Origin: an uncultured Chloroflexia bacterium
GTDB lineage: Bacteria; Chloroflexota; Limnocylindria; Limnocylindrales; CSP1-4
Reading direction: 5' to 3'
Assembly: GCA_963808895.1 (NCBI GenBank)
Contig: CAWEHL010000004.1
Location: 559,972 to 623,971 of the forward strand
Length of the DNA stretch: 64,000 bases
Shown: positions 337-60,903 of the stretch, piece after piece
How positions within the stretch are numbered: position 1 is the first letter of the stretch
Layout: each line of letters opens with the position of its first letter
Made by a program: the position numbers and the translations under genes
The notes under the pieces: generated by a model
Database searches by the model: none
What the model saw: only the letters and a program-made list of their open reading frames with translations
What the model was told of the DNA's origin: nothing

Positions 337-755
337 ACCCGTCGGCAGTCGCGGAGAAGCTACGCGCTGGAGATGGCCCTGACGGCGGCGCTCATAGCGG
401 GACTCTATGTCTGGATGACCAACGGAGGTCCGGAGTGGTTCGGCTCCTACTTCAGGGCAAATGGTCAGTACACCGAGACCTAGCGGAGACACGCCTAACG
501 AAGGGCATGGCGAATGAAGTGACCGGCCGACCGAAGCCGTCGCGGCCGTAGCCCACCTCCTCGTCCGAACGCGTCACGCTCCGCGCCCAGCCACTCAAGC
601 GACCGTCCCCCGCATGGCCTGGTGGTCATCGACGGCCGCGATTCAAGATGGAACGAGTCGATTGCCGTCCGACTCATGATGGGTAAGGACGGCCAGTCGG
701 CCGCAACAAGTCCGGTGTCCGATGCAGCGAGACCTCGTCCTTCGCGCTAGGAACG

Positions 756-1280
756 GTGACCACGACGGCCTTCACGGCCCTCGCCTCGGAAGCGTTCGCG
801 CGGCTGCACCGGACCGCACGGCTGATCCTCCGAAGCGACGATCGGGCGGCTGACGCAGTCCAGGACTCGCTCCTGGCCGCCTGGCTGCACATCCGCGCCG
901 TGCGCGACCCGGAGCGGTTCGACGCCTGGCTCAATCGGCTCCTGGTCAACGCCTGCTATCGGGAGGCGCGGCGGGTCAAGCGGCGCGGGGTCGTGGAGAT
1001 CCAGATGACGCTGCCCGACGCACGGGCACCCGGTGACGCGCAGGAGCTGACCGCCGTACGGGACCAGCTGGAGCGAGGCTTTCGTCGGCTGTCCGCCGAG
1101 CAGCGTGCCGTGCTCGTGGTCCACCACTACCTCGGGCTGCCGGATGCCGAGGCGGCCGCTGTCCTCGATATCGCGGTCGGCACCTTCAAGTCCCGGCTCC
1201 ATCGCGCCTCGACCGCTCTCCGGGCCGCCCTCGACGCCGACGACCGCCGACCGACCATCGCCGAGGAGTCCATCGCATGA
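756..1280 (+). CDS. ECF (sigma-70 family, group IV) RNA polymerase sigma factor
   Basis: region 2 (DSLLAAWLHIRAVRDPERFDAWLNRLLVNACYREARR) and region 4 (LSAEQRAVLVVHHYLGLPDAEAAAVLDIAVGTFKSRLHRA); GTG start; stop overlaps next start (ATGA). Confidence 0.9.
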   Translation: MTTTAFTALASEAFARLHRTARLILRSDDRAADAVQDSLLAAWLHIRAVRDPERFDAWLNRLLVNACYREARRVKRRGVVEIQMTLPDARAPGDAQELTAVRDQLERGFRRLSAEQRAVLVVHHYLGLPDAEAAAVLDIAVGTFKSRLHRASTALRAALDADDRRPTIAEESIA

Positions 1281-2551
1281 CCGCCCGCGACGACTTCGAT
1301 CGAACGCTCGCCGACTGGCTCGATGCTGAGGCGGTCTCGCCCGTCCCGCTCGGTGGACTCGACCAGGCGCTCGACGCCACGCGCCGCCGTTCGCCCCGTC
1401 CCGCGTGGTTGGCCCGCATCGGCAGTCACTGGATCGGCGGTACGGGGTCGAGCACAGGCCGCGCTGGCGCTGCGCATAGGTCCGAGCGGGTCGAGGGCGC
1501 TCATCTTGCTGGCCCTGTCGCCGCTATCCTGGGCGGCGCGCTCGCCGGAACGGTTTTGGTCGGCGGCGTCCTCGGTCCACGACCCAGCCCGTCGTTGGTC
1601 CCACATCGAGCCGTGGTCCCGCCACCGTCGTTGGTCCCACCTCGAGCATTGGTCCCATCACCGTCGCCGATCTCAACCCACCGCGTCGCTCGAAACGGCG
1701 CGATCGCGGTGACGAGGGAAGGTGCGATCGCCCTGATCGACCCGGTCACTGGCAAGACGGTGAAGACGATCCCGGTCGGCTCGGCAGAGGTGGGGGACCT
1801 CACATGGGCTCCCGATGGGCGGAGACTGGCGTTCACGGCGACCGGCGGGGTCTGGGTGATGGACGTGTCAGACGGGACGTCGGAGCAGATCCTGAGCTGC
1901 GGCGAGGGAGCCGATGGGTGCACGATCGCATGGTCGCCCGTGGGCTCGCGCATCGCGGTCGCCCACGGTGACACGCTCGAGCTGGTCGATCCCGACGGCA
2001 GCAACCGGGCGACGCTCTGGAGGCAGATCCACCCTGTCGGCAGAGCTGGGCTGTCGCAGCCGACCTGGTCACCCGACGGAAGCCGGATCGCCGTCAATGG
2101 GTGGATCGGCCAGGGAAGGGGTCTCTATACCATCGATCGGGACGGGTCCAATCTGACCCCCCTCCTCGGCCCGCTTCCGGGAATCGGAACGTACGACCCT
2201 GCCTGGTCGCCCGAAGGATCGACGATCGCGTACTTCGGGTCGACCGATATCCGGGTCTGCAGAGAGAATCGAGTTACCTCGACGACCACCTGTGATGACC
2301 AATGGCAGCTCCATGTCATGTCCCTCCGTCTGGACGGCTCGGAGCCACGCGAGCTGCACAAGGCGGGGATCTGTTATTGCATCGGGGGCGCCCCGAGCCT
2401 CACCTGGTCGCCGGACGGGACCAGCCTCGCGTTCGTCGGATTCGGAAGTGACACCTTTCCAGGCGGCCTCACCGTGATGAACGCTGATGGAACCGAGCTG
2501 CGCCAGGTGACGGAGGACGGCGGCGGTCCGGCCTGGCAGCCGGTTCCGTGA
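1277..2551 (+). CDS. putative anti-sigma factor: short cytoplasmic N-domain, one TM helix, Pro-rich linker, extracytoplasmic TolB-like beta-propeller
   Basis: translationally coupled to the ECF gene; TM LAGPVAAILGGALAGTVLVGGVL; repeated WSPDG/WAPDG propeller blades (APDGRRLAF, WSPVGSRIAV, WSPDGSRIAV, WSPEGSTIAY, WSPDGTSLAF). Confidence 0.8.
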   Translation: MTARDDFDRTLADWLDAEAVSPVPLGGLDQALDATRRRSPRPAWLARIGSHWIGGTGSSTGRAGAAHRSERVEGAHLAGPVAAILGGALAGTVLVGGVLGPRPSPSLVPHRAVVPPPSLVPPRALVPSPSPISTHRVARNGAIAVTREGAIALIDPVTGKTVKTIPVGSAEVGDLTWAPDGRRLAFTATGGVWVMDVSDGTSEQILSCGEGADGCTIAWSPVGSRIAVAHGDTLELVDPDGSNRATLWRQIHPVGRAGLSQPTWSPDGSRIAVNGWIGQGRGLYTIDRDGSNLTPLLGPLPGIGTYDPAWSPEGSTIAYFGSTDIRVCRENRVTSTTTCDDQWQLHVMSLRLDGSEPRELHKAGICYCIGGAPSLTWSPDGTSLAFVGFGSDTFPGGLTVMNADGTELRQVTEDGGGPAWQPVP

Positions 2552-6981: not shown

Positions 6982-8023
6982 CTAGGCTGCGGCGGGCTCC
7001 AGTGCCAGCACATTAAAGGCGCGAACCCAGTCGCCCTTACCGGCGAGACGCAGGCTGCCGAGGTCCTGCACCACGACCACATCCCGCACGGCCTCATGCG
7101 TGGCCTCATCAATGAGGATCTGGCCGGGTCCGGCGGCGGCCTGCAAACGCGCGGCGATGTTCACGGAGTCCCCGACGACCGCGTAATGCATGCGGCGCTC
7201 CGAGCCGACGTTGCCGGCGATGACCTCGCCGGTGGTGATTCCGATCCCTGCCTGCAAACGCACCTCCGGCATGGTCGGGATCTCGAGGCGCATCACCGCT
7301 GTCTGCACATCGAGTGCCGCACGCACAGCCCGCTCGGCGTCATCGGAGTGCATCACTGGGGCGCCGAAGAAGGCGAAGACGCCGTCGCCGAGGAGATCCG
7401 CTACGGTGCCCCCATGGCTTTCGACGGCATCGCTGACGGCAGTCAGGTAACGGTTCAGGAGCGCCGAGCGTTTCCTCTGGCTCATGCTCAGCGGCCAACG
7501 TCGTGTAACCCCTGATGTCCGCGAACAGCGTCGCGACACGGCGCCGATCACCGCCCAGCGCGACGGCGAATGGATCACGGAGCGCCTCGGCCGCGACGCT
7601 CTCGCTTACGTAGCGCCCGAGCAGCTCTCCGAGCCGGTCCTGAAGCGCCTTCGTCCGGAGGAGTGAGCGCAATCGGGCCGACAGCTCAATCTCGTCGAAG
7701 GGTTTCGATAGGAAGTCGTTGGCTCCAGCCTCCAGCCCGCGCGCCTTGTCTTCGCTCAGGTCGAGTGCGGTGAGCAGCAGGATCGGCAAGCCCGCGTATT
7801 CCGGCTGGCGCCGGAGCCGCTCGCAGACCTCGATGCCGTCGAGCCCCGGCATCATCACGTCCAGGCACACAAGATCGGGTTGCTGCTCCGCGACTGCTTT
7901 GATCGCCGAATGCCCATCGCGCGCCTCGGCCACGTCGTAGCCCTGCCGCGTCAGGAGTTTGCGCAGAAGCGCGAGGTTGGCGGGCTCGTCGTCAACGGCG
8001 AGGATGAGAGGTCGGTCGCGCCT
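6982..8023 (-). pseudogene. response-regulator receiver domain fused to class III adenylate/guanylate cyclase domain, with an apparent frameshift near 7497
   Basis: REC: MRRDRPLILAVDDEPANLALLRKLLTRQGYDV...DFLSKPFD; cyclase: TLFADIRGYTTLAAEHEPE then frame change to ALLNRYLTAVSDAVESHGGTVADLLGDGVFAFFGAP...VVGDSVNIAARL; start ATG overlaps upstream stop (ATGA). Confidence 0.7.
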
Positions 8024-8781
8024 CATGCCAGGAAGCCCGCAACGCTGTCCGCGAATGTCGCGAAGTCGATCGGTTTGCTCAGGTAGCCGTCGAACCCGTT
8101 GGCCAGCGCGCGCTCGCGATCGCCGACCATCGCGTGCGCGGTAAACGCGACGACGCACAACTTGGCGGTGCTTGGACTGGCGCGGAGCTCGTTGATCGCA
8201 TGCCACCCGTCCATGTCGGGAAGCCCGAGATCCATCAGCACGAGGTCGGGAGCTGCTTCCCGAGCGAGCGCGATCCCGGTCGCCGCGGTCTCGGCGCTCA
8301 GCACCTCGTGCCCGGCGGCGCGGAGCAGCTTCGTAGCCAACGCCCGATTCGGCGGGTGTGTCCTCCACCACCAGGATCGTCGCCATCAGTGCCGGACCAG
8401 CGGCCTGCGCGTCGCTGTCCGTCAACGCACGAAGCAGGCTGTCCTTCGCGACCGGCTTGGCGACGTGAGCATCCGCGAGATCTGGCGTGTCGGCCGCATC
8501 GACGACAGCTGACGCACGATCACGGGTATCCCCATTGTCACTGGATCGGTCTTGAGAGCGTGCAGGATCTCGCGGCCGCCATGTCCAGGCACGAGCATTC
8601 CGAGCAGGATCACGTCCGGTGACACGCGTCTCGCGTCGCTCAGTGCCCGGCTCCGGTCGGTCGAGCCGACGACGCGATACCCCTCGCCGGCGAGCATCTT
8701 CTCTAGTAGCGGCGCTACCGAGGGATCATCGTCGATGCTGAGCAGCAAGCGTCTCGCCATCGCCAGCTCCACCCCGCTCAA
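8023..8781 (-). pseudogene. tandem receiver (REC) domain protein(s), two apparent frameshifts
   Basis: REC A: MARRLLLSIDDDPSVAPLLEKMLAGEGYRVV...GIPVIV, C-terminal part in another frame (DAADTPDLADAHVAKPVAKDSLLRAL); REC B: MATILVVEDTPAE then frame change to ATKLLRAAGHEV...MDLGLPDMDGW...GFDGYLSKPIDF. Confidence 0.65.
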
Positions 8782-10379
8782 CCGTCGTCGCCGTGGCCGG
8801 CGCCGTGCGAGCAGTCGACCGGCAGCCTTAGGAAGAACACGCTTCCATGTCCGGGTTCGCTCTCAAGCGTGATGTCGCCTCCCATCGCCCGCGCGAGACG
8901 ACGGCTGATCGCGAGACCCAGACCAGTACCGCCCTCGCCTCCCTCGGCCTGACGGAACTCCTCGAAGATGGCCTCATGCTGATCTGCCTCGATGCCGCGT
9001 CCGGTGTCGCGCACCGATACCATGAAACTCGAGTCTGCCGCGCCGCTGGTCTCCACTTGCACCTCGCCGTCGCTGGTGAACTTGAGTGCGTTCCCGAATA
9101 GGTTGACGAGGATCTGGCGGACCCGCTGTCGGTCGAGCACGACCTCCGTCGGGTGCGCCGGCGTCAAGCCACGCGAAGCTGATCCCTTTCTGTGCGGCCA
9201 ACGACCGGTGTTGCGCCACGACTGATTCGACGAGTTCCCGCGGGTCGAAAGGTTGCGGGTCGAGAGTGAGCTTGCCGGCTTCGATCTTCGACAGGTCGAG
9301 GATCTCGTTGATCAGTCCGAGCAGGTCCCGCCCGCCCTTCTGGACCCAGCCCAGCGACTCGGTCTGCTCCGGGTTTAGGGGGCCATCCACGCCCGCGAGG
9401 AGTGCGTCGGTGAAGCCGAGGATCGCGTTCATCGGCGTTCGCAGCTCGTGGCTTACGCTCGCCAGGAAGCGCGACTTCGCCTCACTCGCGCGCTTGAGGG
9501 AAGCGTTCGTCAGCTCTAGTTGGTGGCCCAACGCACGCTGATCCTCGAATATGCTGCGCCAGACGCTCGCTCGTCTCGTTCAGGTCGCGCGCGAGGCTTC
9601 CGAATTCGTCCCGGTTCGGCACCTCCACGCGTTGCGTGAAGTCTCCCCTAGTGACCGCCGCAAGTGCTCGTTGCATCTTTCGCACCGGGAGGATGATCGG
9701 CCACGAGAAGACGAATCCGAGGATCAGTGCCACGACCACGCTGGAGGCCGAGAACGCGACGACGGCGGAAGTCGAGCAGGATTCGGTCGGACTCGAACGC
9801 GCCCCGCGCCTGGACCATCTGCTGCTCGGCCTCGGTGATCAGGTTCCGCATCGCGGCCTCGAGCACATGCGAGGCTGGGTGCTCCTCCTCCAGATGAAGG
9901 CGCGTGGCAGCGCGGATGTCACCGGCCTCGTACAGCGCCAATGTCCTGGCGCTGGAGGCCGAGAACCCGTCGTTCGTGGCTCTCACCTCGCGGAAGAAGT
10001 TCGCCTCGGCCGGGTCAGCCCGCTCCATCTGGTCGAGGAGGTCGATGAATGTGTTCTTCGCTTCGGCAATCTGCGTGTTGTATTTGTCCTCGTGCGTCAG
10101 GAGCGCCATGGCCCGGAAGTGGCTTTGCGCCGTGACGGCGTAGAGCATCTGCTGCGCTCGGCTGGTCTTCTCTTGGAGGTGGTTGAGCTCGCCGACGCGT
10201 TCGTTCATCCGCCCGATCACGAGGAGACTGAGGATCGCCATTCCCACGAGAAGCAGGGCGCCGGCGAGGAATCCGAAGAGCAGCTTTCGATGGACTCCCG
10301 CACTCGTGCCGGCGACTGCGTCGACCACGGGTCGGAGCCAGCCCGTGAAGCGGGGCAATCCGGGCTCGACAGGCATCAT
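8778..10379 (-). pseudogene. sensor histidine kinase (TM sensor, HAMP, HisKA, HATPase_c) in at least four frame segments
   Basis: sensor with TM (LLFGFLAGALLLVGMAILSLLVIG); HAMP (WPIILPVRKMQRALAAVTRGDFTQRVEVPNRDEFGSLARDLNETSERL); HisKA (RFLASVSHELRTPMNAILGF); HATPase (QILVNLFGNALKFT...GTGLGLAISRRLA); each block in a different frame; stop overlaps REC start. Confidence 0.7.
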
Positions 10380-10662
10380 TGGCTAGGAGTCTGCGCCGGA
10401 CGCCTAGACCCTCGCAAGGACCGCGGCCCGCTTCGTCGCCTGAGAACGACGTCAGCTCGCGACGCCACCGCCGCCCTCAGGGCAGACCGGCGGTCGTCAG
10501 CCCTATCCCCAAATCGCACGCACGCGTCGGCCGGCACGCCGGAGATGCCACGTCGGACTCGACCCAATATGCCTCCGCGACTCAAAGTCCCATCCTCCAG
10601 TGGCTCGAACGGATGCATAACGGCTGCCGCCGCTGTTCGTTGTGACAAGGGCATCGCCCGAC

Positions 10663-10702
10663 GAACCCCGCTCGATGAGTCACCTCCGACCGAGCGGGGT
10701 TC
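10663..10702. other. perfect 12-bp inverted repeat (gaaccccgctcg / cgagcggggttc) with 16-nt loop, in a 550-nt lower-GC non-coding stretch
   Basis: read directly from the sequence; lies upstream of the kinase operon on the minus strand. Confidence 0.5.
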
Positions 10703-11015
10703 TCTGTGTCCCGCACCAGACGCCATAACGGTCCGAGCGCAACTTCCTTGTCACTGTCAGGGGCCTCCGGAGTGGCTCGATCTTCTCCCGGCGGTACGAA
10801 ACTCTCCGCGGGGTCCCCGCGAAACATGCACTCGTTTGTGCGATCGAGTCCCTGATACTCAATCGGAGTCGCTCATCAGGAGGACGACTACGGTGATCTA
10901 TTAAGGCCACCGCGCTCATGGCCGAGCTGGATGGCATGCTCGTCGAAAAACGGAGCCTCACCCCGGAAGAGCGTGCGTCCCTGCCGGAGAGCGTTCGGCG
11001 GTTCTTCGATGAGCC

Positions 11016-11270
11016 CTAGACGAGATAAATCGCAACTAGGCCGTCACTGCGGCAGTTTCCTCGTGTTGTGCTGCTCCACGATCCAGGCCGCGGCGCGGTA
11101 CCAATACTCCGGGTCCTCGGTATGGATGCCGGCAGCGCGCGGTGTGTTTCCCAGGCATCGAGCCACGCGTCGGCCGACTCTGGCGGCATGGCGTGGTTCA
11201 TGAGCCATCCGCGGATGGTCAGTCGCCGACCTTCGTAGCCCCGGCCATGCTCATCGCGTCGGTACTTCAC
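11016..11270 (-). CDS. small hypothetical protein, tandem paralog family T copy A
   Basis: ...RRLTIRGWLMNHAMPPESADAWLDAWETHRAL; paralogous motifs in the next two copies. Confidence 0.35.
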   Translation of the reverse strand: MKYRRDEHGRGYEGRRLTIRGWLMNHAMPPESADAWLDAWETHRALPASIPRTRSIGTAPRPGSWSSTTRGNCRSDGLVAIYLV

Positions 11271-11297
11271 GCTCCCGTTCGCCTGGACCTCCGCTGT

Positions 11298-11507
11298 TCA
11301 TCGATCCACGCGATACCTGCGCCCCAGTTGTCGGGCGACGCACGGTCGACCCGCGAACCTCGGCCTCGACCTCCCAGGCATCGCACCACGCCTCGGCGCG
11401 CTCCAGCGATATCCCGTGTCCGTTAGCCCATTGCGCATCGGGACGCGACGCGCCATGAAGATGCGGTTAGGGTCAGCGCGCCTCGACATGTGGTAAGTGT
11501 CGCCCAA
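11298..11507 (-). pseudogene. family T copy B, frameshifted
   Basis: MSRRADPNRIFMARRVPMRNGLTDTG then +1 frame ISLERAEAWCDAWEVEAEVRGSTV; aligns with copy A (RR-L/V-T/P-I/M-R...E-S/R-A-D/E-AW-L/C-DAWE). Confidence 0.3.
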
Positions 11508-11923: not shown

Positions 11924-12244
11924 CTAGCGGGCTGGACTGACGGCTAGGTCGGTAGCTTCCTCGTCTTCCGCTGGTCCTTGATCCAGTGCGCGGCACCCTT
12001 CCAGTAGTCGGGATGAGCCGTTCAAATCCCTGTCGATCGGCCTGTTCTCGCACGCGTCGACCCACGCCTCGGCCGTCGCCCGGCCATCCCATCTGGCACG
12101 AGACGACTTTCGAGTCGCCGTCGCGAGTCGCCTTGCTGGTGACATTCCCGAACGCTTTGCCAAATTCGCGCCGTTTACCATGACCAGGGACCTCGATGAG
12201 CATGAGCAAACCTTGCGCGCCGCCTGGACCGAAGCATTCGCCAT
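11924..12244 (-). pseudogene. family T copy C, divergent and frameshifted
   Basis: ...ARWDGRATAEAWVDACENRPIDRDL in one frame and ...VVSCQMGWPGDGRG in another. Confidence 0.25.
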
Positions 12245-12932
12245 CGCGAGGGACCTCGGGGCGGGCTACGTCGGGACCGACATGCTGTTGATGGGCTTGA
12301 CCCGCACCGAGGGTGCGGCCGCGGAGGTACTTGCCGCGGCCGGCGCGACAGAGGCCGCTGTCGCGGCGATCGTCACACCGACGAATCGTGACGGAGCGAT
12401 GCCGGCAGACGGAGGCGAATGCCGGCGCATCCGCGCCTGAGTCCCGCGGCGCAAGAAGCACCGGGTCGCGCGGAAGAGGATGGGCATCGCTCTCGGCGTC
12501 GCCGACGGATCGATCCGCCTACTACTCGCCCTCACCTACGACCGCGACGGTATTCACAGCTCGCTCCTACGCCGCGTAGGCATCGACCGTGGGGTCCTCG
12601 TGCAGGCGCTCGCTGATAGCGGCGTACGGGTCCCCCCTAGACCACCCCCGCCCGACCGGACCCCGCACTCCGTATGGGTGACCCTCCCGGACCATCAGGC
12701 GCGCGTCGTGGCGGCCGAACTGGCGCGCCGCTCGACCGAGGACATGGACTATTGGTTCGACTCGTGGGGCGGCGCCAGCTGGGGATACGGCGGCGTCGAG
12801 GACCGGCCCGGTGAGGCACGGATCTACGGCGAGGAGCGGATCGACCTGCCCACTCTGGTGCCGGAAATCCTTGCCGCAAGTGGCTACCCGCCGCCGCCAG
12901 ACGATTCCTCGGAGACCCACCGAGAGGTCTAG
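12180..12932 (+). pseudogene. Clp N-terminal (Clp_N) double-repeat domain protein interrupted by an in-frame TGA at 12438-12440
   Basis: repeat 1 LLMGLTRTEGAAAEVLAAAGATEAAV; stop; repeat 2 LLLALTYDRDGIHSSLLRRVGIDRGVLVQALADSG in the same frame. Confidence 0.45.
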
Positions 12933-14425: not shown

Positions 14426-15109
14426 GGCATGTCGCCTCCGAGTAGATGTCTACGCGCCGATATCATGGGCGGATGTCCCGGCGGTCGTCCCACAACTCGT
14501 CGCCAACGACGGAACAAGGGCATTGCGACAGGCGATCGCCGATCCGGATCGCTTCGCCTGCGAGCCGAACGTTCGATGGCGTCCGCGGCCTCGTCATCTA
14601 CCAGCCGGAACACGTTCTCGAGATGCGCAACCGGCGCGGCGAGAAGCGCGATTGGTTGCGCGGAGACCCGTTCGAGAGAGGTCTCCGACGCCTAGCCGAG
14701 CGACTCCCGAACCTCTGGGAAGGGACCGTCCTCGACGGAGAGCTGACCGCCGGACGGTTCGAAGGAACCATGTCGGCGCTGCTCGGGTCCAAACGGTTCC
14801 GACCATCGCTGCGGTTCGTCGTGTTCGACGTGCCGATGTTGCTCGGCGCGGACCTCCGCGGGCCTGCCCTGGCAGGACCGGCGTGAACGGCTCGAACTCC
14901 TCGCCCGTGCCTTCGACGTGCCGTTGGAACTCAGCGCGCTTGTTGATCCGTCCGTGTCGCTCGTCGAGCAGATGACGGATGGTCGGCTCGAGGGCATCGT
15001 TCTCAAGGACCGGACGTCGACCTACCGCGACGGATCGCGGGCAGGGTGGACCAAGGTCAAGGACCGATCGTGGTACGAGCGCGAGGCGTGGCGCTTCGAC
15101 CGCCGCTAA
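14424..15109 (+). pseudogene. minimal ATP-dependent DNA ligase (nucleotidyltransferase domain only, ~215 aa) disrupted by two +1 frameshifts
   Basis: frame 0 MACRLRVDVYAPISWADVPAVVPQLVANDGTRALRQAIADPDRFACEP; one extra c near 14588 shifts into motif I (EP-K-FDGVRGLVIYQ), then VLDGELTAG (motif IV); second extra c near 14865 shifts into LPWQDRRERLELL...EGIVLKDRTSTYRDGSRAGWTKVKDRSWYEREAWRFDRR* (motif V); no OB domain. Confidence 0.7.
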
Positions 15110-15222
15110 CAAGGGGTGGGAGTACCCTGTACGGGCGTCCCGTCCGAGTGCCTCCCGCACGCGACGATTAGCGGGTGCCCCGAGGCCACTCCCCATTGCC
15201 CAATGATGGCAAGACGAACGGT

Positions 15223-15465
15223 GTCGTGCCGGAGCTGACGACGACGTCGGCGGCCCTGACCGAATGGCGGGAAGCCGAACGTTCGGTCGCCGTCGCGCGC
15301 CGCGGACGGGTCGCGGCACAGGCGGCGATGGACGCCGCTGTGCTGGCCACCCAGGCCGCGCAGCGGACTGCGGCGGCGGCCAAGGCGGCCCTCGAGTCCG
15401 CGACATTCGCGCAGGCATCAGCCACGGAGACCGCGACAGCGGCGCGCGTCGTGGTGCGCGGTTGA
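15223..15465 (+). CDS. small Ala-rich coiled-coil protein
   Basis: [79 protein letters not shown]; stop TGA overlaps the next start (TTGA); start codon uncertain. Confidence 0.35.
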
Positions 15466-15776
15466 GTGATCATCCCGCGTTGCCGGCCCTCGAGCCAGAC
15501 GAGGAAATCCGTGTCCGGGTAAGCGCTGGCGACAGCGTCGTCATCCTGACGGACAAGCGGCTCGCGATCGCGTCTCAGGACAATCTCGCACTCGATGTGC
15601 CGCTCGAAAATCTGCTCCGGATCGAGTTTGATATCGAGCGCGGCCGTGGAGCGACACTCGTCATCTTTCCGATGCAGCCGGAGGATATGCCGCAGGTCGT
15701 CATGGTCCCTGCTTCCGCTTACGAGGCCGTCGCCCAGGCACTCGTAGTGATCGGGCGGAGACTCTCGCTCGCGTAG
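15462..15776 (+). CDS. small hypothetical protein with PH-domain-like pattern
   Basis: [60 protein letters not shown]; coupled to upstream gene. Confidence 0.4.
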
Positions 15777-16139
15777 GCCGTCGCGTCCCCGGGCTTTCCG
15801 CGGTCAACCCGCCGCGCTGCAAATCCCTGGAAGCGGCAGGTAAGCGCAGACAGGTACGCTGCCACGACCCCCGCTCCGCGTCCCGGTCCTTCGATCTCGG
15901 GCCACCGGCCAGTCGGTCGGCGCCGACCAACGCTAGCGCGCGGGATCAGGGCTCGGGGATAGGGACCTCCCACGGCTGTCACCGAAGGTCGCATCCCACC
16001 GCGACTTGTGCGGCTCGGGTAGCCGAGGTCGACGGACCCGATGGCCCACATTCTGTCCGCGCTGCGGCAACGGTCTTGCGGCCGTGATGGCGCCCAGATG
16101 GGTGTGGCACCAAGGCTGACCACGACGCGGGGTTGCGGG

Positions 16140-16484
16140 TTACTCCGTCCGATCGTTTGGGCTGTCCACGACCTCGCGAGCCCATTGGTACGCGGCGGCC
16201 GTCGCAGGAAATCCGGCCGTTGGGATCGCGATCGTGATAGCGTGCAGGAGGTCGGGCGCATCGATTCCCTCGCTCAGTCCTCGTCGGACATGGGAGCGTA
16301 CGCCCCCCTCCGACGACAACCCGACCGCCAGCCCGAGTTTCACAAGACGCTGTTCGCGATCGCTCAAAGGGCCGGCGCGCCGGCACACATCGCCGAGCGC
16401 GTCGTACGCCCTAGCGAGCTCAGGGTTTTCCGCACGAAGGTCTCGGTACACCCGTGGTAGGTAGCCGCGTCGCTTCTCGGTCAT
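16140..16484 (-). CDS. carboxymuconolactone decarboxylase (CMD/AhpD-like) family protein
   Basis: LPRVYRDLRAENPELARAYDALGDVCRRAGPLSDREQRLVKLGLAV...HVRRGLSEG; full-length 114 aa. Confidence 0.85.
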   Translation of the reverse strand: MTEKRRGYLPRVYRDLRAENPELARAYDALGDVCRRAGPLSDREQRLVKLGLAVGLSSEGGVRSHVRRGLSEGIDAPDLLHAITIAIPTAGFPATAAAYQWAREVVDSPNDRTE

Positions 16485-16918
16485 GGTCCGCTCCTCTCGC
16501 CTCTTCGTCCGGACCTATGATCATGCCTCGTCGCGCCAACCATTCGGCTCAGGCCCTACGGAGCGCCCCAACGCTCGGCCTGCGGGCGACACGGGCTCGG
16601 AGTCCCGTTGAGAGCGTGACTGCGCACGAGCTGAGTCCACGTCCTCGACGATTGACTCGTACGCCGCCCCAAGGTCCCGTCGATCGTTCGCACCCTGAGC
16701 CACTCGTCCGTCCCAGGCATGGCAAGCGCGGGCTTGGCTGCGTGCTGCGCCTCATACGCCTCAAATCGGTGCGGCCCCGGTCGCCATCAGGACTCCATCG
16801 CTATCCGTTCCATGCGCGATGTGTCGATCTCCGACTTCGACCTGATCGCGGATTCGCCTCCGCGGTCGCGTGGCGACCCTGGACGGCGCTAGCGGTCGGG
16901 GATCGGCCCGGGACGTGA

Positions 16919-17029
16919 GTACGCGCTTCGGTCGGCGTACCCATCGGTAAGGTCCAGAGCGAGCTCAGCGGCGTGCGGGCGCCGACCTGGTACGCCTACC
17001 GTGACGGCCACTTTCCGTGGCCTTCGTGA
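16919..17029 (+). pseudogene. possible remnant of an AlpA/excisionase-type HTH protein (no start codon)
   Basis: open frame VGVPIGKVQSELSGVRAPTWYAYRDGHFPWPS* resembles the recognition helix and C-terminus of AlpA/Xis-family HTH proteins (...LGVSRSTVYRWI.EG.FP.P); only ~35 aa; speculative. Confidence 0.2.
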
Positions 17030-17039
17030 CGCTAAGCTG

Positions 17040-17110
17040 ACTCGGCCCCGGCCCCGGTCCCGGACCTCGATACGTCTCCTCCCCCGAGCCGTCAGTCAGT
17101 CCGGGCCGAC
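17040..17110. repeat. dispersed repeat family D, copy 3
   Basis: ctcggccccggccccggtcccggacctcgata...gtccgggccgaccgg. Confidence 0.45.
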
Positions 17111-17328
17111 CGGGTTCTGCTCGGGGGCTGATCCCCAGCGGTGACGTCCAGCAGCGCGCCGAGAAGGAGGATGATCTCGTCCTGATTGTTCACGATCCGC
17201 TCGAGCGTTTCGCTGGTCGCATGGAGTAGGTCGCGGATCTCAGTCAGACCTCGTGGGTGCCAGCCCCGGCGATCACTGTGGTGCCCGACGTATCCGCGGT
17301 CAGCTGGCACGTTCTCGTCAGTAGCCAT
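17092..17328 (-). CDS. small hypothetical protein
   Basis: helical-looking LTEIRDLLHATSETLERIVNNQDEIILLLGALLDVTAG; follows the upstream small gene by 26 nt. Confidence 0.3.
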   Translation of the reverse strand: MATDENVPADRGYVGHHSDRRGWHPRGLTEIRDLLHATSETLERIVNNQDEIILLLGALLDVTAGDQPPSRTRSARTD

Positions 17329-17353
17329 CGTTTGCCGCTCCCGTGGTCCGGGG

Positions 17354-17576
17354 CTATCGCCTGACGTTCGAACGGACGGGCTGTCCCTTCGGATCGGTCA
17401 GCTTGTAACCCGCCTCGTCCAGCTCGCCATCCGCGAACAACGCAAGGTGCTCCAGGTACCGTTTGCCGGTCTCGCTCGTCACCCCACAGGCGCAGACGAT
17501 GCGGGTTCCGACCACGGCCTTGGGTGGATGGTTGTCGATCGCCATCAAGATAATCTCGCCGACCGTATGTGCCATT
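17354..17576 (-). CDS. small putative winged-helix DNA-binding protein
   Basis: MAHTVGEIILMAIDNHPPKAVVGTRIVCACGVTSETGKRYLEHLALFADGELDEAGYKLTDPKG resembles wHTH regulators (RYLE.L...G.L....Y.LT..G); start taken at the internal ATG of ORF 17354..17656. Confidence 0.4.
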
Positions 17577-17750: not shown

Positions 17751-18312
17751 CGTTCGGAGCCAGACCTAGGTCGTCCCGAACGATCGCGGCCTTGTCGGCG
17801 ACAGCGTCGGACGCGCGGTTCGCTGACGCCTGCAAGGAGATAGCGTCGGCCAGCGTCTTGGCTCGGGCCACTGACTTAGCGGGTCGCTGGTACACGATGT
17901 CGGCCTTGATCAGAGCTCGGATGTCGGCTTGGACCTCTGGCGGCCAAGCCACCTTCTTGAGTCCGTCGATGAACTTGTCGTCCGCCTTCGCGATGATCGC
18001 CCAATACGCCCTATACCCGCGAAGTGACGTACTGCCGCCATACAACTAGTCTGCACGGCGGCCCGCGGCGTTGACAGCCTTCGCGAGCTGGTAGTACGCC
18101 GATGCCGCTTGTTTGATGGTCAGGAACGAGGGTGTGGGCGACGCCGCGGCGCTTGCTGACGGCGCGGGCTGTGACGCGGGCGGACCAGGACTCGCAGGCA
18201 CTGGTGTCACTACGATCACGATCGGAGTCGGAGTCGGAGTCGGAGGCGGTGCGGCTTGAGCTGCCCCGCACCCCGCGACAATGAGCACGGTCGCAACGAG
18301 CAAGAGCCTCAT
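17746..18312 (-). pseudogene. lipoprotein (signal peptide, Pro/Thr-rich linker, globular domain) split by an in-frame TAG at 18046-18048
   Basis: MRLLLVATVLIVAGCG lipobox; PPPTPTPTP linker; ...AYYQLAKAVNAAGRRAD * LYGGSTSLRGYRAYWAIIAKADDKFIDGLKK... continues in the same frame. Confidence 0.45.
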
Positions 18313-20563: not shown

Positions 20564-22088
20564 TCAATCCAACCGCGAGCCAGGAGGCTTCGATTGCCGC
20601 TCGTCATAAACGGACGCCCCAGGGGGCAGCCCGGAGCATCCGCCGGAGCTCGTGCGGCGCCGCCTCGCTAGGAGCTGGACCGCGTCTTCGTGCTGCGCCC
20701 TGCTGTCGTAGCCAGTCGTGGGCGGCAGTGTCGTCGTCGAAGTCGCCGCTCCTTCCTGCTCGCGCGTCTTGGCTTCCATCTCACGCTCACGCTCTCGTTC
20801 GGCCCGCTCTGCCTCGCGAGCCTGACGGTCCTGCTCCGCCTGGGCCTTCTTGGCCTCCGCTTCCTCCTGGCGCTGGCGTTCGGTCTCATCGACCTTGGAG
20901 CGGAGATCCTCGAGCACCGGTGCGCTGATGCCCGGTCCCGATGCGGCCTCGAGGGCGGCCTCGCCGCGCTTCTCGGCTCGCATCTCGTCGCGTTCGAAGG
21001 CGACCTCGCCCTTGAAGACGGATGCAAGCAGGCTATCGAGCGCGCCCGCGTCGTGGGCCCGCTGGACCGCCGCATGGGTGATCAGATCACCGAGGTCGAG
21101 GATGACGCGATCCTCGAGGTCCAGCATCACCTTCGTGACGGGCCGGCCGACAGCATCCTCGATCTCGTCCAGCCGGCGCTTGGTCTGCTCGTGGTCGACG
21201 CGCTGACCAGCCGCGTCGGTCATCTCGCCGACCTTGCGCGTGAACTTATCCCACAGGCTCGCGGCATTGTCGCCGGCCGCGCCGAGCGCATCCTTGGCGT
21301 TGGCTGCGGCCAGGCTTGCCTCGCCCACGCCGACTGCCGTCGTCAGGTCCGCCAACTTGTCGGCTGCTCGGGCACGTTCGATGTCGTCGTTCGTGACCCG
21401 CCGTCCGGCCGGGACCACGACCGCGCCGTCGTCATCCTCGACGTCGCGGCCGGTGCGCTTACCGAGGAGGGCATCCTCGGGCCTGGCACCTTCCGTTGCG
21501 GACTTCGCGCCGGCGGCGGCCTCACCCGCCGCGGTCTTGGCCTTGTCGCCGACATCGGCGAGGGCACCGCTGATACCGCCCCGCTGCTGCTCGAGCAACG
21601 CGGCGGTCTCGGGATGGACGTAGGCGACATCCTTGCCGACCCGCACGAGCTCCTCGATGGGAACGTATCGCGTCCCGTGCGCCGCATCGGTGAACATCCC
21701 GCCGGATAACTCCAAGCCGAGGATTCGACCTGTCGCATCATCGAAGTAGACGTCGTTGATCTTGCCCTGGTCGTCGCCGGTCTCGGTGAACACCCGTGTC
21801 CCGAGCAGCGACTGGTCGCGCGCGACGATCGACTCGATCTCGGGAGCCTCCTTCGCGGCTATCACACTCTCGCGCCGCGCGACGACCACCGCGTCGCGGC
21901 CGAAGCTGACGACTTCCGCGAAGGGCACGACGAGCGAACTCGCGAGGAACCCTCCCTCGTCCGCAAGCAGTCCGACGACGGTGTCGTTGCCGCTCCCCAG
22001 GATGACGTCCCTGCACCTCGTGCACACGCTCCCCGTCCGCCAAGCTCAGGAGAGGCTTGCCGACCACGCTCTTGCCCTTGCGCATCAC
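20564..22088 (-). CDS. PRC-barrel domain protein with long charged/coiled-coil C-terminal region; apparent +1 frameshift near 22015
   Basis: MRKGKSVVGKPLLSLADGERVHEVQ then an extra g (caggGacgtc) shifts into DVILGSGNDTVVGLLADEGGFLASSLVVPFAEVVSFGRDAVVV; second PRC barrel GKINDVYFDDATGRILGLELSG. Confidence 0.65.
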
Positions 22089-22444: not shown

Positions 22445-22555
22445 CGAGCCGTAGCCTGTCACCACCCCGGCTCCGGTCCGCAGACTCGCGATCCCCAGGT
22501 CCCCCCTTGGGCCAGCCTGTCGCGGCCGACCGGCGCTCATAGCGCCAACGTCAAT
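22445..22555. repeat. dispersed repeat family D, copy 5
   Basis: gagccgtagcctgtcaccaccccggctccggtccgcagactcgcgatccccaggtcccccc...gccagcctgtcgcggccgaccggcgctcatag. Confidence 0.55.
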
Positions 22556-26460: not shown

Positions 26461-28098
26461 ATCTCGAACACGACCTTCCCGTCGAGCAGCACCATATGCG
26501 GACGGGTCGTGGACAGCGGGCCACCGGCCGTGACCGGTTCGTCGATGGACGCGGCCGTGATCACGACGACGTCTGCGCGCTGGCCGACGACCAACCGGCC
26601 GCGGTCGGTCTCCTTCGCCGATACGGCGGGGTCGATGCAGTTCGCCCGAAGCGCTCGGTCCAACGACAGGGACTGCTCTGGCGCGTACGTCGGCGTCCCC
26701 GCCGGCCAGCGCGCGTCGTCCCGTTGGACGGCGAGCGCGAGGCCGGGCCACGGGTCATAGGGCTCGACCGGAGCGTCGGTGCCGAACGGCATCACGGCAC
26801 CGCTATCGGCGATCGACTTCCACGTGTACCCCTCGACTTCCGCCCGGTCGCCCCACAGCTTCCGGGCAGTGATGGCGTCGGATCCGAGGTGGACGGGTTG
26901 GACGCTGGCGGCGATCCCGGCTGCGGCGAAGCGCGGCCGATCGTCCGGATGCAGCATCTGGACGTGCTCGATGCGCGGCATCAGCGGCGAGGTCGCCGCG
27001 AGTGGCTCGAGGACCGTCAACGCGGCCCGGATCGCGGCATCGCCGATCGCGTGGATCGTCGTGGCGATCCCGCCGGCGGCCGCCCGTTCGGCGCGCTCTC
27101 GCAGCCCGTCCGGATCGGTCATCCACACGCCGCGCCGCTGCGCGGGCGGCAGCGGGCGGTCGGCTTCTGGCTCGATGTCCTCGAGCAGTGCCGCGGTCCG
27201 GGAACCGAGCGAGCCATCGGCGAAGCACTTCTGCCAGCCGACCGTCGCGCGACCATCGGGGTTCGACCCGAGTCGCGCGCCGCTGCGATGCCCGGCCTGG
27301 ATCGCTGCGGCGACCGCGTCGTCGCGCATGCAGGCGTGGACGCGCACCGGTAGGCGACCAGCGTCGGACAGGCGGGCATAGGCCGGGAACGAGTACTGGA
27401 GGTCGGGGTCGGGAGCGACGCCGCCTGGGTCATGGCACGCGACGACGCCGAGCCGCAGCAGATCCTGGCTCACCTCGATGAGCGCCCGGTCGAGCTCGTC
27501 GGCGGTGGGCGCCGGGACGTGGATCGTGACGAGCCGGGTGGCGCCCTCATACAGCACGCCCTCGGCGGATCCGTCGGCGGCGCGCCTGATGACGCCCCCG
27601 CTCGGGTCGCCAGCCGGAAGACTCGCCTCGCGCAGTGCCGCGTGGCTTGCCCACAACGCGTGGTGGTCGTGCGCCCAGATCGCCGCGCGGCGACCGGGCG
27701 CCACCGCCTCGAGTGCATCCGCCGTCGGCCAGCCACCCCATCGATCGGAGTCCCAGCCGTGGCCTTCGAGCCAGGCACCGTCCGGCAGCCGCTCATGCGC
27801 CACGCGGAGTCGCGCCAGGCCCTCATCGAGGGTCGGCGGCGTCATCGAGGTCGACGTGCCGCGAGGCCATCGCCGCCTGCGTCAGATGCAGATGGGCATC
27901 GGTCAGGCCCGGGATCGCGACCTGATCAGGCTCGAGCCGGATCCGCTCGGTGAACGGATCGGCGCGCGTCTCCAGATAGACCTCGGAACCGGCGAATGCG
28001 ATCCGCCCGTCGCGGATGCCGATCGCCTCGACCCAGCCGAAGCCCTCATCGCCCGCGAGCGTGGCGATACGGCCCGTGATGAGGGTGTCCAGCGGCAT
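26457..28098 (-). CDS. metal-dependent amidohydrolase (Amidohydro_3-like); apparent +1 frameshift near 27840
   Basis: N-part MPLDTLITGRIATL...IPGLTDAHLHL (HxH metal site) ends after HVDLDDAADPR*; C-part starts TPPTLDEGLARL... in the next frame and continues 460 aa to the stop at 26457. Confidence 0.75.
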
Positions 28099-28104: not shown

Positions 28105-29092
28105 TCAGCCTACCGGCTCAGCCATGAGCCGCGCGAGGCCGTCATGGTCGAGGCCCGCCGCCAGCCCGAGCGAGAGTGCGACCCGCGCCTTGATCGCGCA
28201 GAGGGTTCCCGCCGGGATCGCTCCGGCGCGCACCCACGTCGCCGCCGCCGCCGGGGAACGCGTAGGCCGTGGTCACGGCGCCGGCCGGACATCGGGATGC
28301 CAGGACCACGGCGATCCCGTTCGTCATGGCACGTTCCGCGGCGGCGAGCATCAGCGGCGAGGTGTTCCCCGCTCCCGTTGCTGCGACGACGACGCCACGC
28401 GCGCCTGCCGCGACCGCCGCATCGATCAGCGCGCCATCGGTACCGATGCCAGCCTCGACGAGCTCGACGCGGGCCCCGTCTGACGGCGCGGGCCGGAGGC
28501 GGCGCCGCGGCCCGCGTACCCCGGCCTGGACGTCGCTCGCCTCACCGATCGTGCCGAGCGAGCCACGGTTCGGCGAGCGGAACGTGTCGAACGCCGTCGT
28601 GTGCATCTTGGTGACGTCGTCGGCAGCCTCGATCGTCCCGGCGAGCGCGACGACGACGCCGGCATCGCGAAGTGTCGGGGAGGCGGCGGCGGCCACGGCC
28701 CGACGCAGGTTCGCGGGCCCGTCGTAGCCGTCCTCGTGCGACGCTCGCATCGCACCCGTCACGACGACCGGCTTCGACGACTCGAGGACGAGATCCCACG
28801 CGAACGACGTCTCCTCGATCGTATCGGTCCCCTGGACGACCACGACCCCGTCGATGGCGTCGTCGTCGAGGGCGGCCTGGATAACGCCAGCGAGCGTCAT
28901 CAGGTCGCGGAACGTGAAATGGCTCGCCGGGGTCAGCCCGCGGTCGATGGGAACGACGTCGGCGAGCGCGTCCAGACCGGGCGTGCGTGCCAGGATCGCG
29001 GCACCGTCGAGGGACGGCACGTTGCCACCGGCCACGGGATCGAATCCCATGCTGATCGTCCCGCCGGTGAAGACGACGGCGACACGTGGCAT
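28105..29092 (-). CDS. L-asparaginase (type I/II family); apparent +1 frameshift in a ggcggcggcggc run near 28235
   Basis: MPRVAVVFTGGTISM, VVVQGTDTIEETS; after AFPGGG the native C-terminus ATWVRAGAIPAGTLCAIKARVALSLGLAAGLDHDGLARLMAEPVG* is in the +1 frame. Confidence 0.8.
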
Positions 29093-60182: not shown

Positions 60183-60903
60183 GTGACGTCGGAGAGCCAG
60201 CGGCCGGCCTTCACCCATCGACCCGCCCGTCACGGGCTGATCGGGCCGTTCAGCGGGCGCCAGCTGCTGGCCGGGGCGATCGCCGTTCTGGTCATCGCGA
60301 TCATCGGCGTCGTCGTCACCACGCCACTCGGCAATACCGCGAACCGGCCTGACCTCATCGACCCGCTCGCGACGCCGTTCCTCATCGGCGAAGCGCCGGC
60401 CGAGGGGTTGCAGGCGGGTCAGCAGGCACCCGAGCTGTCCATGGACCTCGGCGACGGCAGCACATATCAGCTCAAGGATCTCGACGGGAATCCGGTTCGA
60501 CTCGCCGACCTCCGAGGCAAGGTCGTGTGGCTGAACTTCTTCGCGTCTTGGTGCCCCCCATGTCAGCAGGAGACCCCGATCCTGCGCTCGCTCGCGGACA
60601 CGTACCGCGATCGCGGGCTCGAGGTGGTCGGCGATCAGCGTCCAGGAGACCACGGCAGCCGACGTCAAGGCATACGCCGATCGCTACCGCTTGCGCTACA
60701 CGATCGGCTTCGACGGTTCGGGAAACGTGCTGCGCGAATACCGCGTGTTCGCGCTGCCGACCCAGTTCTTCATCGACACGAACGGCACCATCCAGCAGGT
60801 CGTGAGCGGCCCGGTCGACGAGCAGGGAGCACGAGCGTTGATCGAGTCGATGCTGCCGGGCAGCCCCGCGCCATCGGGATCGCCGTCGCCGGTCGCGTCC
60901 TAG
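60183..60903 (+). CDS. TlpA/ResA-like thiol-disulfide oxidoreductase; apparent +1 frameshift (extra g) near 60631
   Basis: TM anchor; RGKVVWLNFFASWCPPCQQETPIL...DRGLEVVG then the native sequence ISVQETTAADVKAYADRYRLRYTIGFDGSGNVLREYRVFALPTQFFIDTNGTIQQVVSGP...* continues in the +1 frame to TAG 60903. Confidence 0.75.

What the first reader, a model, noticed from the sequence alone, without database searches (positions are those of the whole stretch)
6982..10379. Sensor kinase / multi-receiver / receiver-cyclase operon carrying at least seven single-base frameshifts; similar lesions scattered elsewhere
Every domain of a four-gene signalling operon (TM sensor, HAMP, HisKA, HATPase; REC; REC; REC plus class-III nucleotidyl cyclase) is recognisable but spread over different frames. 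The junctions examined look like one extra base, for example tggCttgac at ~9185. Comparable lesions occur in the ligase (14588, 14865), PRC-barrel gene (22015, gg to ggg), amidohydrolase (27840), asparaginase (28235, in a ggc run), resA-like gene (60631), membrane protein (13170) and family T copy B. In-frame stops occur at 12438 (Clp_N) and 18046 (lipoprotein). Yet several 1.3-2.4-kb genes are intact, including uvrA-like, cysS, the anti-sigma genes, the 51396-52619 kinase and the haloperoxidase, so the lesions are not uniform. Either the 1-23 kb accessory region and a few other genes are really decaying, or they reflect local consensus errors.
Basis: seen in the sequence. Interest (0 to 1): 0.55.

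Follow-up and report, generated by a model that had tools for sequence, protein, structure and literature searches.

The report
Assembly insertion errors, not gene decay
The "frameshifted" signalling operon is an intact three-gene operon into which the genome assembly wrote ten spurious extra bases, mostly where co-occurring strains differ by one letter, so it is a sequencing-consensus artefact rather than a decaying gene cluster.

Summary
The domains are real and do lie in different frames. The cause is ten single-base insertions on the minus strand at about 9774, 9551, 9150, 8810, 8756, 8514, 8508, 8408, 8350 and 7466. Eight relatives and a 98.5%-identical sister contig lack all ten. There are no deletions. 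No inserted base repeats a neighbouring base. Eight of the ten place the two alleles of a known SNP side by side (P=2.6e-8). Removing them restores three genes, as in the short-read relative L001: a hybrid kinase with receiver (661 aa), a receiver (about 120 aa) and a receiver-cyclase (347 aa). The restored genes have no stop in 1129 codons, and pN/pS on the window branch is 0.17. The window's proteins sit on a 1.36-Mb metagenome contig. A sister long-read contig carries the same insertion-only lesions at other positions, at about 1.5 per kb. Short-read contigs of relatives carry almost none. The lesions listed in the ligase, PRC-barrel, amidohydrolase, asparaginase and ResA-like genes are also +1 insertions. 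All but one (14860, shared with one sister contig) are private to the window wherever a relative covers the site. The operon is a strong hotspot, with 10 lesions in 3.4 kb. Verdict: consensus errors of a long-read metagenome assembly, not biology.

The parts
8386..10379 (-). Hybrid sensor histidine kinase gene: TM sensor, HAMP, HisKA, HATPase_c and a C-terminal receiver. It is 661 aa once eight spurious bases are removed.
   Evidence: The corrected translation is 661 aa, like L001 10001-11986. Pfam finds HAMP 224-274, HisKA 300-368, HATPase_c 415-520 and Response_reg 545-649.
8023..8386 (-). Single-domain response regulator (receiver) gene, about 120 aa once one spurious base is removed.
   Evidence: The corrected protein MATILVVEDTPANRALATKLL...FLA matches Response_reg positions 1-108 of 111. 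The orthologue is L001 11983-12348.
6982..8026 (-). Receiver plus class III nucleotidyl cyclase gene, 347 aa once one spurious base is removed.
   Evidence: The corrected protein matches Response_reg at 8-119 and Guanylate_cyc at 163-332 (profile 8-175 of 183). The orthologue is L001 12345-13388.
9774..9774 (-). Spurious inserted C (ctgctCgac).
   Evidence: Absent in 8 relatives and in sister contig L118. The next column is a G/C third-position SNP, and the window has both alleles.
9551..9551 (-). Spurious inserted T (gcaTattc).
   Evidence: Absent in 8 relatives and L118. L001 has A and L002 has T at this column. The window has AT.
9150..9150 (-). Spurious inserted G (cacccGacgg).
   Evidence: Absent in 8 relatives and L118. 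L001 has C and L002 has G at a third codon position. The window has CG.
8810..8814 (-). Spurious inserted base (ctgcTcgca). Its placement is ambiguous within 8810-8814.
   Evidence: Absent in 8 relatives and L118. It sits at a C/T third-position SNP.
8756..8757 (-). Spurious inserted C (atggCgaga).
   Evidence: Absent in 8 relatives and L118. Only distant relatives show the second allele at this site.
8508..8514 (-). Two spurious inserted C's six bases apart (gtgCgtcagCtgtc).
   Evidence: Both are absent in 8 relatives. Both sit at G/C or C/T SNP columns. L118 has a different single insertion one base away (gtggCtc).
8408..8409 (-). Spurious inserted G (cgcGcag).
   Evidence: Absent in 8 relatives and L118. 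This site has no clear both-allele signature.
8350..8350 (-). Spurious inserted G (gccGaat) in the small receiver gene.
   Evidence: Absent in 8 relatives and L118. It sits at a C/G third-position SNP.
7462..7466 (-). Spurious inserted base in ctCggcGctc, in the cyclase gene.
   Evidence: The window has one base more than L001, L002, L007, L118 and five other relatives. The string is the union of the L001 and L002 versions.
14570..14570 (+). Spurious inserted C in the ATP-dependent DNA ligase gene, at the catalytic-lysine codon (gaaCgtt).
   Evidence: Absent in L120 and L121. The corrected protein matches DNA_ligase_A_M positions 13-204 of 204.
14860..14860 (+). Extra G in a G-run of the ligase gene.
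   Evidence: Shared with L121 but absent in L120, where the frame continues. Either a recurrent homopolymer error or a real shared mutation.
22012..22014 (-). Spurious inserted base near the start of the PRC-barrel gene.
   Evidence: Absent in L109/L120, L121 and L002. Removing it lengthens the ORF from 493 to 526 codons, and the corrected protein has two PRC domains.
22534..22534 (+).
   Evidence: Absent in L109/L120 but present in L121. Removing it lengthens an ORF from 75 to 172 codons.
27835..27835 (-). Spurious inserted base in the amidohydrolase (YtcJ-like) gene.
   Evidence: Absent in L109 and in the short-read contigs L029, L030 and L031. The window product is 462 aa against 546 aa in members of its 90% cluster.
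28241..28241 (-). Spurious inserted base in the L-asparaginase gene.
   Evidence: Absent in L109, L029, L030 and L031. The window product is 316 aa against 328 aa in cluster members.
60625..60635 (+). +1 frameshift in the ResA-like thiol-disulfide oxidoreductase gene (gtcggcgatc).
   Evidence: The joined protein matches AhpC-TSA positions 2-123 of 124 (99 bits), against 2-64 (56 bits) as it stands. No relative DNA was available for this site.
18046..18048 (-). In-frame TAG in the lipoprotein gene.
   Evidence: Both sister contigs have ATG (Met) here. The difference is a swap of two adjacent bases.

Best explanation
The operon is a normal, functional-looking three-gene signalling module: a membrane hybrid histidine kinase, a stand-alone receiver and a receiver-cyclase. 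Its sequence in this contig was corrupted when the consensus of a long-read metagenome assembly was built.

Inferred mechanism: reads from co-occurring strains, or from a second copy of this mobile operon, differ at synonymous SNP sites. The aligner or polisher represented some of these mismatches as an insertion plus a deletion, and the consensus kept both alleles. Each such site yields a one-base insertion and so a frameshift.

Shown here:
- The insertions are private to this contig.
- All are insertions, and none is in a homopolymer.
- They are tied to SNP sites.
- The underlying coding sequence is intact and constrained.
- A second long-read assembly shows the same error type elsewhere, while short-read assemblies do not.

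Inferred: the sequencing platform and pipeline, and the reason this operon is a hotspot (local strain or paralogue heterogeneity).
For: 1. All ten operon insertions are absent from eight relatives in seven MAGs. They are also absent from sister contig L118, which is 98.5% identical in the operon.
2. The window has 10 insertions and 0 deletions. None of the 10 inserted bases equals a neighbour (null 0.49, P=1.2e-3). Eight of 10 are the second allele of an L001/L002 SNP placed next to the first (null 0.071, P=2.6e-8). With all eight relatives it is 10 of 10 (P=2.3e-5). The adjacent variable columns are mostly third codon positions.
3. Removing the ten bases gives three ORFs collinear with the short-read relative L001, with 0 stops in 1129 codons. 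The window branch has 42 synonymous and 21 non-synonymous changes (pN/pS 0.17), against 0.20 on the intact L001 branch. Pfam domains become full length.
4. The window's proteins are recorded on a 1,361,774-bp contig, and 90%-identity cluster mates have full-length asparaginase and amidohydrolase.
5. Over 15.8 kb aligned with at least two other sequences, private 1-bp insertions/deletions were: sister long-read contig 23/0, window 4/0, short-read contigs 1/0, 0/0 and 2/0. Of the sister's 23 insertions, 12 show the both-allele signature (P=3e-7). The sister's gene calls there are split for the DUF881, MFS, SBP_bac_5, tRNA-synt_1e and amidohydrolase genes.
6. L118 has three lesions of its own in the operon at other sites. 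One is a deletion exactly at a T/G SNP.
7. All 17 polarised single-base lesions in the window are +1 (binomial P=1.5e-5).
8. Frameshift errors are a documented feature of Nanopore metagenome assemblies, and are more frequent in soil data (PMC9262707, PMC13087279). Related MAGs L002, L004 and L008 carry MFD isolate names. The Microflora Danica long-read paper describes a pipeline of Flye assembly and one round of Medaka polishing (PMC12313526).
Against: - No reads were available, so artefact status is inferred from comparison, not observed.
- The window's own record, platform and pipeline are hidden.
- The classic Nanopore error is a homopolymer deletion, not a non-homopolymer insertion, so the exact error mechanism is my inference.
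- One ligase lesion (14860) and the extra C at 22534 are shared with a second contig (L121). These could be real mutations or recurrent errors.
- Substitution differences between the window and its sister peak in the cyclase gene (7001-8000). The insertions peak at 8350-9774. The hotspot is therefore not simply explained by that one measure of divergence.
Confidence: 0.92

Rival explanations
1. Genuine recent pseudogenisation. The strain really carries ten +1 insertions in the operon and scattered ones elsewhere, because an accessory region is decaying.
For: The lesions are concentrated in a variable, accessory-looking part of the window. The operon's flanks are not syntenic with L001 or L002, and strain-specific segments lie at 10582-11420 and 11953-12801. 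An in-frame TAG sits in the lipoprotein gene. The ligase is reduced to a 28-aa remnant in the short-read relative L001, so real gene loss does happen at this locus.
Against: All ten are absent from a 98.5%-identical strain. pN/pS on the window branch is 0.17 and the corrected sequence has no stop in 1129 codons. There are no deletions, no homopolymer events and no larger indels. That is contrary to the deletion-biased, slippage-dominated indel spectrum of bacteria (general knowledge). The both-allele signature has P=2.6e-8. The same lesion type breaks conserved genes in the sister long-read contig, whose gene calls include a split tRNA-synt_1e gene, but not in short-read contigs.
Confidence: 0.04
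2. A mixture. Most lesions are artefacts, but a minority are real mutations in a few dispensable genes. Candidates are the G-run insertion at 14860 shared with L121, the base at 22534 shared with L121, and the stops at 18046 and 12438.
For: 14860 and 22534 appear in two contigs assembled from different samples. The lipoprotein gene is disrupted differently in the window (TAG) and in L120/L121, which share two G-run insertions.
Against: The shared events lie in G-runs or are of the same insertion type as the demonstrable artefacts, so recurrent systematic error explains them equally well. The TAG/ATG difference is an adjacent-base swap. That needs two simultaneous substitutions in nature but only a misplaced base in a consensus.
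Confidence: 0.3
3. Programmed recoding. The frameshifts are bypassed by ribosomal +1 or -1 frameshifting or by transcriptional slippage, so the operon is expressed as written.
For: None specific. The only point in favour is that frames can be rejoined conceptually.
Against: There are ten sites in 3.4 kb with no shared slippery motif and no homopolymer. None is conserved in any relative. Programmed frameshift sites are conserved and rare (general knowledge).
Confidence: 0.005

Closest known systems
Indel and frameshift consensus errors in long-read (Nanopore or PacBio) assemblies and MAGs, as measured by IDEEL-type tests (PMC9262707, PMC13087279; also Watson and Warr 2019, from memory)
   Same: Single-base indels truncate or split otherwise conserved genes. 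Short-read assemblies of the same taxa lack them. They are more frequent in complex soil metagenomes and uneven along a contig.
   Different: The textbook case is a homopolymer-length error, usually a deletion. Here the operon lesions are all insertions and none is in a homopolymer. They sit at population SNP sites with both alleles retained. This points to strain or paralogue mixing during consensus rather than basecalling of homopolymers. I found no paper in the searched library that describes this specific signature.
Genuinely pseudogene-rich bacterial genomes, such as Mycobacterium leprae or recent host-restricted pathogens (general knowledge)
   Same: Recognisable domains are spread over several frames, and lesions cluster in dispensable genes.
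   Different: Real decay shows deletions and insertions of mixed size, nonsense mutations, relaxed dN/dS and lesions shared by close relatives. None of these is seen in the operon.
Two-component phosphorelay with a class III adenylyl/guanylyl cyclase output: hybrid HisKA kinase, stand-alone receiver and receiver-cyclase
   Same: The corrected operon has exactly this domain set and gene order. It is conserved at 72-95% nucleotide identity in seven Chloroflexota or Actinomycetes MAGs.
   Different: Nothing unusual was found. Catalytic residues and nucleotide specificity were not examined.

Membership tests
Assembly consensus artefact (long-read metagenome) | The lesion is absent from independent assemblies of the same or near-identical strains. 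| tested here: met
   All ten operon insertions are absent from L118 (98.5% identical) and from eight other relatives. The insertions at 27835 and 28241 are absent from L109 and from three short-read contigs.
Assembly consensus artefact (long-read metagenome) | The error spectrum is non-biological and shared with other assemblies of the same type, but not with short-read assemblies. | tested here: met
   The window has only insertions (17 of 17). The sister long-read contig has 23 private insertions and 0 deletions in 15.8 kb, against 0-2 in short-read contigs. The both-allele signature has P=2.6e-8 in the window and 3e-7 in the sister.
Assembly consensus artefact (long-read metagenome) | Raw reads do not support the consensus base. 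| not testable with these tools
   No reads are available and the window's source record is hidden.
Assembly consensus artefact (long-read metagenome) | The sequence comes from a long-read assembly. | tested here: inconclusive
   Exact window proteins are recorded on a 1,361,774-bp contig held by NCBI and ENA. Megabase contigs from soil-type metagenomes imply long reads, but the platform is not stated.
True pseudogenes (reductive decay) | Relaxed selection on the disrupted coding sequence (dN/dS approaching 1, accumulating stops). | tested here: not met
   Window-branch pN/pS is 0.17, against 0.20 on the intact L001 branch. There are 0 stops in 1129 corrected codons.
True pseudogenes (reductive decay) | A natural indel spectrum: deletions at least as common as insertions, homopolymer or repeat slippage, and variable length. 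| tested here: not met
   The operon has 10 insertions and 0 deletions, all 1 bp, and none duplicates a neighbouring base.
True pseudogenes (reductive decay) | Lesions inherited by close relatives. | tested here: not met
   None of the ten is shared with the sister contig. Apparent sharing at 9776 and 8513 resolved into different insertions at neighbouring positions. Only 14860 and 22534 are shared with L121.
Hybrid histidine kinase / receiver / receiver-class III cyclase operon | Full-length HAMP, HisKA, HATPase_c, Response_reg and Guanylate_cyc domains in three collinear genes. | tested here: met
   Met after correction, with all matches above the Pfam gathering cut-offs. The architecture is the same as the intact L001 ORFs.
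Hybrid histidine kinase / receiver / receiver-class III cyclase operon | Conserved phospho-acceptor His and Asp residues and cyclase metal- and substrate-binding residues. | not tested
   Residue-level inspection was not done, because it does not bear on the question of artefact versus decay.

The most novel reading that the evidence does not exclude
The ten insertions are real. In that case this strain suffered a very recent burst of +1 insertions aimed at polymorphic or recombining sites of a mobile signalling operon. One conceivable source is error-prone repair of heteroduplex mismatches after recombination with a 90%-identical second copy, which would leave both alleles in tandem.
Probability: 0.03. 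Interest if true: 0.5.

Novelty: not a real feature. Interest (0 to 1): 0.08.

Why it matters
The biology is ordinary: an intact two-component/cyclase operon. The practical value is as a caution. Gene calls, pseudogene counts and 'decaying accessory region' inferences from this contig are unreliable. Its sister contig is worse, at about 1.5 spurious insertions per kb. The diagnostic used here can flag such errors without reads. It looks for private +1 insertions outside homopolymers that place both alleles of a population SNP side by side. Frameshift-aware annotation or re-polishing would restore about 17 or more genes' worth of sequence in this window.

Tried and rejected
- Exact look-ups of window proteins to identify the source record failed or were masked. 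Only the contig length and the holding databases could be learned.
- A codon-usage Viterbi frame scan of the whole window was too noisy in the lower-GC3 region at 10-23 kb to serve as a census.
- A flank-frame classifier and an ORF-lengthening test were only partly informative, because high-GC shadow ORFs interfere.
- Apparent shared insertions between the window and L118 at 9776 and 8513 were an alignment effect. They are different insertions at neighbouring positions.
- I tested whether the Clp_N in-frame stop at 12438 hides a compensated double frameshift. Pfam scored both versions the same, so this is unresolved.
- I tested whether substitution divergence between the window and its sister peaks where the insertions peak. 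It does not: it peaks in the cyclase gene.
- Programmed frameshifting was rejected because no site is conserved.
- The ORFs of loci L001-L108 gave almost no coverage of 10-21 kb. The sister contigs were needed for that region.
Full report
**What is in the sequence.** The minus strand between 6982 and 10379 carries ORF fragments in three frames. Pfam assigns them to HAMP, HisKA, HATPase_c, three Response_reg domains and Guanylate_cyc. Several matches are truncated: the first receiver covers profile positions 2-75 of 111 and the cyclase covers 33-175 of 183. The observation that every domain is recognisable but spread over frames is therefore correct.

**Relatives.** A scan of species-representative genomes with a conceptually joined kinase found the same operon in seven MAGs:
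- L001, a megahit short-read Chloroflexota MAG, 95.4% nucleotide identity over 3455 bp.
- L002 and L007, two copies in one MAG (isolate name MFD09267.bin.2.90), about 89.5%.
- L003 to L008, 72-76%.

The flanks of the operon are not syntenic with L001 or L002, so it behaves as an accessory module. In L001 the operon has three intact ORFs: a 661-aa hybrid kinase that includes the first receiver, a 121-aa receiver and a receiver-cyclase of 347 aa from its ATG.

**The lesions.**
- Multiple alignment shows exactly ten columns where the window has a base and all eight relatives have a gap. They lie at about 9774, 9551, 9150, 8810, 8756, 8514, 8508, 8408, 8350 and 7466. No column has the window alone gapped.
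The true insertion there is the G at 9150.
- No inserted base equals either neighbour (expected 49%, P=1.2e-3).
- At eight of the ten sites, the inserted base and its neighbour are the two alleles that L001 and L002/L007 carry at a single SNP column. An example is L001 caccc-acgg, L002 caccg-acgg and window cacccGacgg. A random insertion would do this 7% of the time (binomial P=2.6e-8). With all eight relatives as the allele source it is ten of ten (P=2.3e-5).
- The variable columns are mostly third codon positions.

**Is the coding sequence decaying?** I deleted the ten bases and used L002 as outgroup.
- The window branch carries 42 synonymous and 21 non-synonymous changes (pN/pS 0.17).
- The intact L001 branch carries 47 and 27 (pN/pS 0.20).
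- The corrected sequence has no stop in 1129 codons.
- The corrected proteins give full-length Pfam matches: receiver 2-109 of 111, receiver 1-108 of 111 and cyclase 8-175 of 183.

Ten frameshifts in a sequence still under purifying selection would require all ten to be extremely recent.

**Where the window comes from.** Exact-sequence look-up shows the window's proteins on a 1,361,774-bp contig held by NCBI and ENA. Its truncated asparaginase (316 aa) and amidohydrolase (462 aa) cluster at 90% identity or more with full-length proteins of 328 and 546 aa from short-read metagenomes. The record itself could not be retrieved.

**Sister contigs.** Two other contigs with Flye-style names were retrieved from ENA assemblies.
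- ERZ25039584 contig_1464 (3.46 Mb) is held as loci L118, L120, L109 and L119. Together they tile window 1-60448 at 97.5-99% identity.
- ERZ25039579 contig_209875 is held as L121 and covers 14454-22627 at 98.9%.
- L118 contains the operon in the same context at 98.5% identity and lacks all ten insertions.
- Two apparent shared insertions resolved into different events at neighbouring positions. L118 has an extra A about 12 bp upstream of the window's C at 9774. It has gtggCtc where the window has gtgCgtc.
- L118 also has a one-base deletion exactly at a T/G SNP.

**Error profile by assembly type.** I aligned 15.8 kb (21.5-37.6 kb of the window) with at least two other sequences covering each column. 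Private one-base insertions and deletions were as follows:

| Contig | Type | Insertions / deletions |
|---|---|---|
| L109 (sister) | long-read | 23 / 0 |
| Window | long-read (inferred) | 4 / 0 |
| L110 | short-read | 1 / 0 |
| L030 | short-read | 0 / 0 |
| L029 | short-read | 2 / 0 |

- Of the sister's 23 insertions, 12 show the both-allele signature (P=3e-7).
- The sister's insertions fall in genes that are intact in the window. Its gene calls in that region are split for the DUF881, MFS, SBP_bac_5, tRNA-synt_1e and amidohydrolase genes.
- Across about 51 kb, the sister has about 75 extra bases relative to the window, and the window about 25 relative to the sister.

This insertion-only, SNP-linked lesion is thus a property of these long-read contigs, not of the organisms.

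- Ligase: a private C at 14570, at the catalytic-lysine codon. An extra G in a G-run at 14860 is shared with L121 but not L120. L120 has its own insertion at 14973. Each contig is broken at different places, and together they define an intact gene. The corrected protein matches DNA_ligase_A_M positions 13-204 of 204.
- PRC-barrel: a private base at 22012-22014.
- Amidohydrolase (27835) and asparaginase (28241): private insertions, absent from the sister and from three short-read contigs.
- ResA-like gene: a +1 shift near 60631. The joined protein matches AhpC-TSA positions 2-123 of 124, against 2-64 as it stands. No relative DNA covers this site.
- A further lesion at 22534 had not been listed.
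- All 17 polarised single-base lesions are +1 (P=1.5e-5).
- The in-frame stop at 18046-18048 is TAG where both sisters have ATG. This is a swap of adjacent bases, which is more easily made by a consensus step than by mutation. In the same gene, L120 and L121 share two G-run insertions where the window reads through.
- Unresolved: the Clp_N stop at 12438 lies in an 849-bp segment that the sister lacks. The membrane-gene lesion near 13170 corresponds to a +4 and a -2 difference from the sister.

**Clustering.** There are ten lesions in the 3.4-kb operon, against 7 confirmed and at most about 15 candidate lesions in the other 60.6 kb (Poisson P between 2e-11 and 2e-8). I infer that the hotspot reflects local heterogeneity among the reads. 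The operon is mobile, duplicated in at least one related genome, and variable among strains. I could not show this. Substitution divergence from the sister peaks in the cyclase gene rather than where the insertions peak.

**Literature context.** Frameshift-causing indels are a recognised residue of Nanopore assemblies. They are reported as more frequent in soil metagenomes than in HiFi data (PMC9262707, PMC13087279). The Microflora Danica long-read paper describes Flye assembly with one round of Medaka polishing and notes high microdiversity in some soils (PMC12313526). Several related MAGs carry MFD isolate names. I found no description of the specific both-alleles-in-tandem signature. That mechanism is my inference from the sequence comparisons.

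**Conclusion.** The finding is real as a description of the sequence, but with about 0.92 confidence it is a consensus artefact. The operon is an ordinary, intact hybrid-kinase / receiver / receiver-cyclase module. A small minority of the lesions outside the operon may be real: 14860, 22534 and the two stops. Read mapping would settle every case.

Noticed in passing
L002 9926-13428 and L007 1800-5302: The same MAG (isolate name MFD09267.bin.2.90) carries two copies of the whole operon on different contigs, 98.6% identical to each other. The operon's flanks are not syntenic between the window, L001 and L002. The operon therefore looks like a mobile or duplicating accessory module.
   Followed up: partly
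window 10582-11420 and 11953-12801: Two unique segments of about 840 bp are present in the window but precisely absent from the 99%-identical sister contig (L118/L120). The second contains the Clp_N-like gene with the in-frame stop at 12438. No flanking repeats were found.
   Followed up: partly
window 14454-14588; L120 13205-15847: The sister contig has about 2.6 kb extra at the ligase locus, holding a Polysacc_deac_1 gene and a DUF2188 gene. It is bounded by two copies of a 135-bp stretch that occurs once in the window. This is either an insertion or a recombination-mediated deletion at the 5' end of the ligase gene.
   Followed up: no
window 17835 and 17918 (lipoprotein gene): L120 and L121, assembled from different samples, share two extra G's in GG/GGG runs that break the gene. 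The window reads through. This looks like a recurrent, sequence-specific error or a real shared mutation.
   Followed up: partly
window 32461-32522: There is an 18-bp tandem repeat of 3.4 copies in the peptidase-MA gene. The window has one more in-frame unit than all five relatives (460 aa against 454-455 aa). This is a copy-number difference, not a frameshift.
   Followed up: partly
L109 1-20762 (ERZ25039584 contig_1464): The sister long-read contig has about 1.5 spurious single-base insertions per kb. Its gene calls are split for the tRNA-synt_1e, SBP_bac_5, MFS, DUF881 and amidohydrolase genes, which are intact in the window. Its annotation is much less reliable than the window's.
   Followed up: yes
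window 753-2551 and 48795-50647: There are two paralogous pairs of an ECF sigma factor gene followed by a TolB/PD40-like gene of about 425 aa. The first sigma gene has an extra A at 765 relative to the sister contig.
   Followed up: no
L001 7619-7743: In the short-read relative L001 only a 28-aa remnant of the ligase is detectable. Real gene loss therefore does occur at this locus in other lineages.
   Followed up: partly
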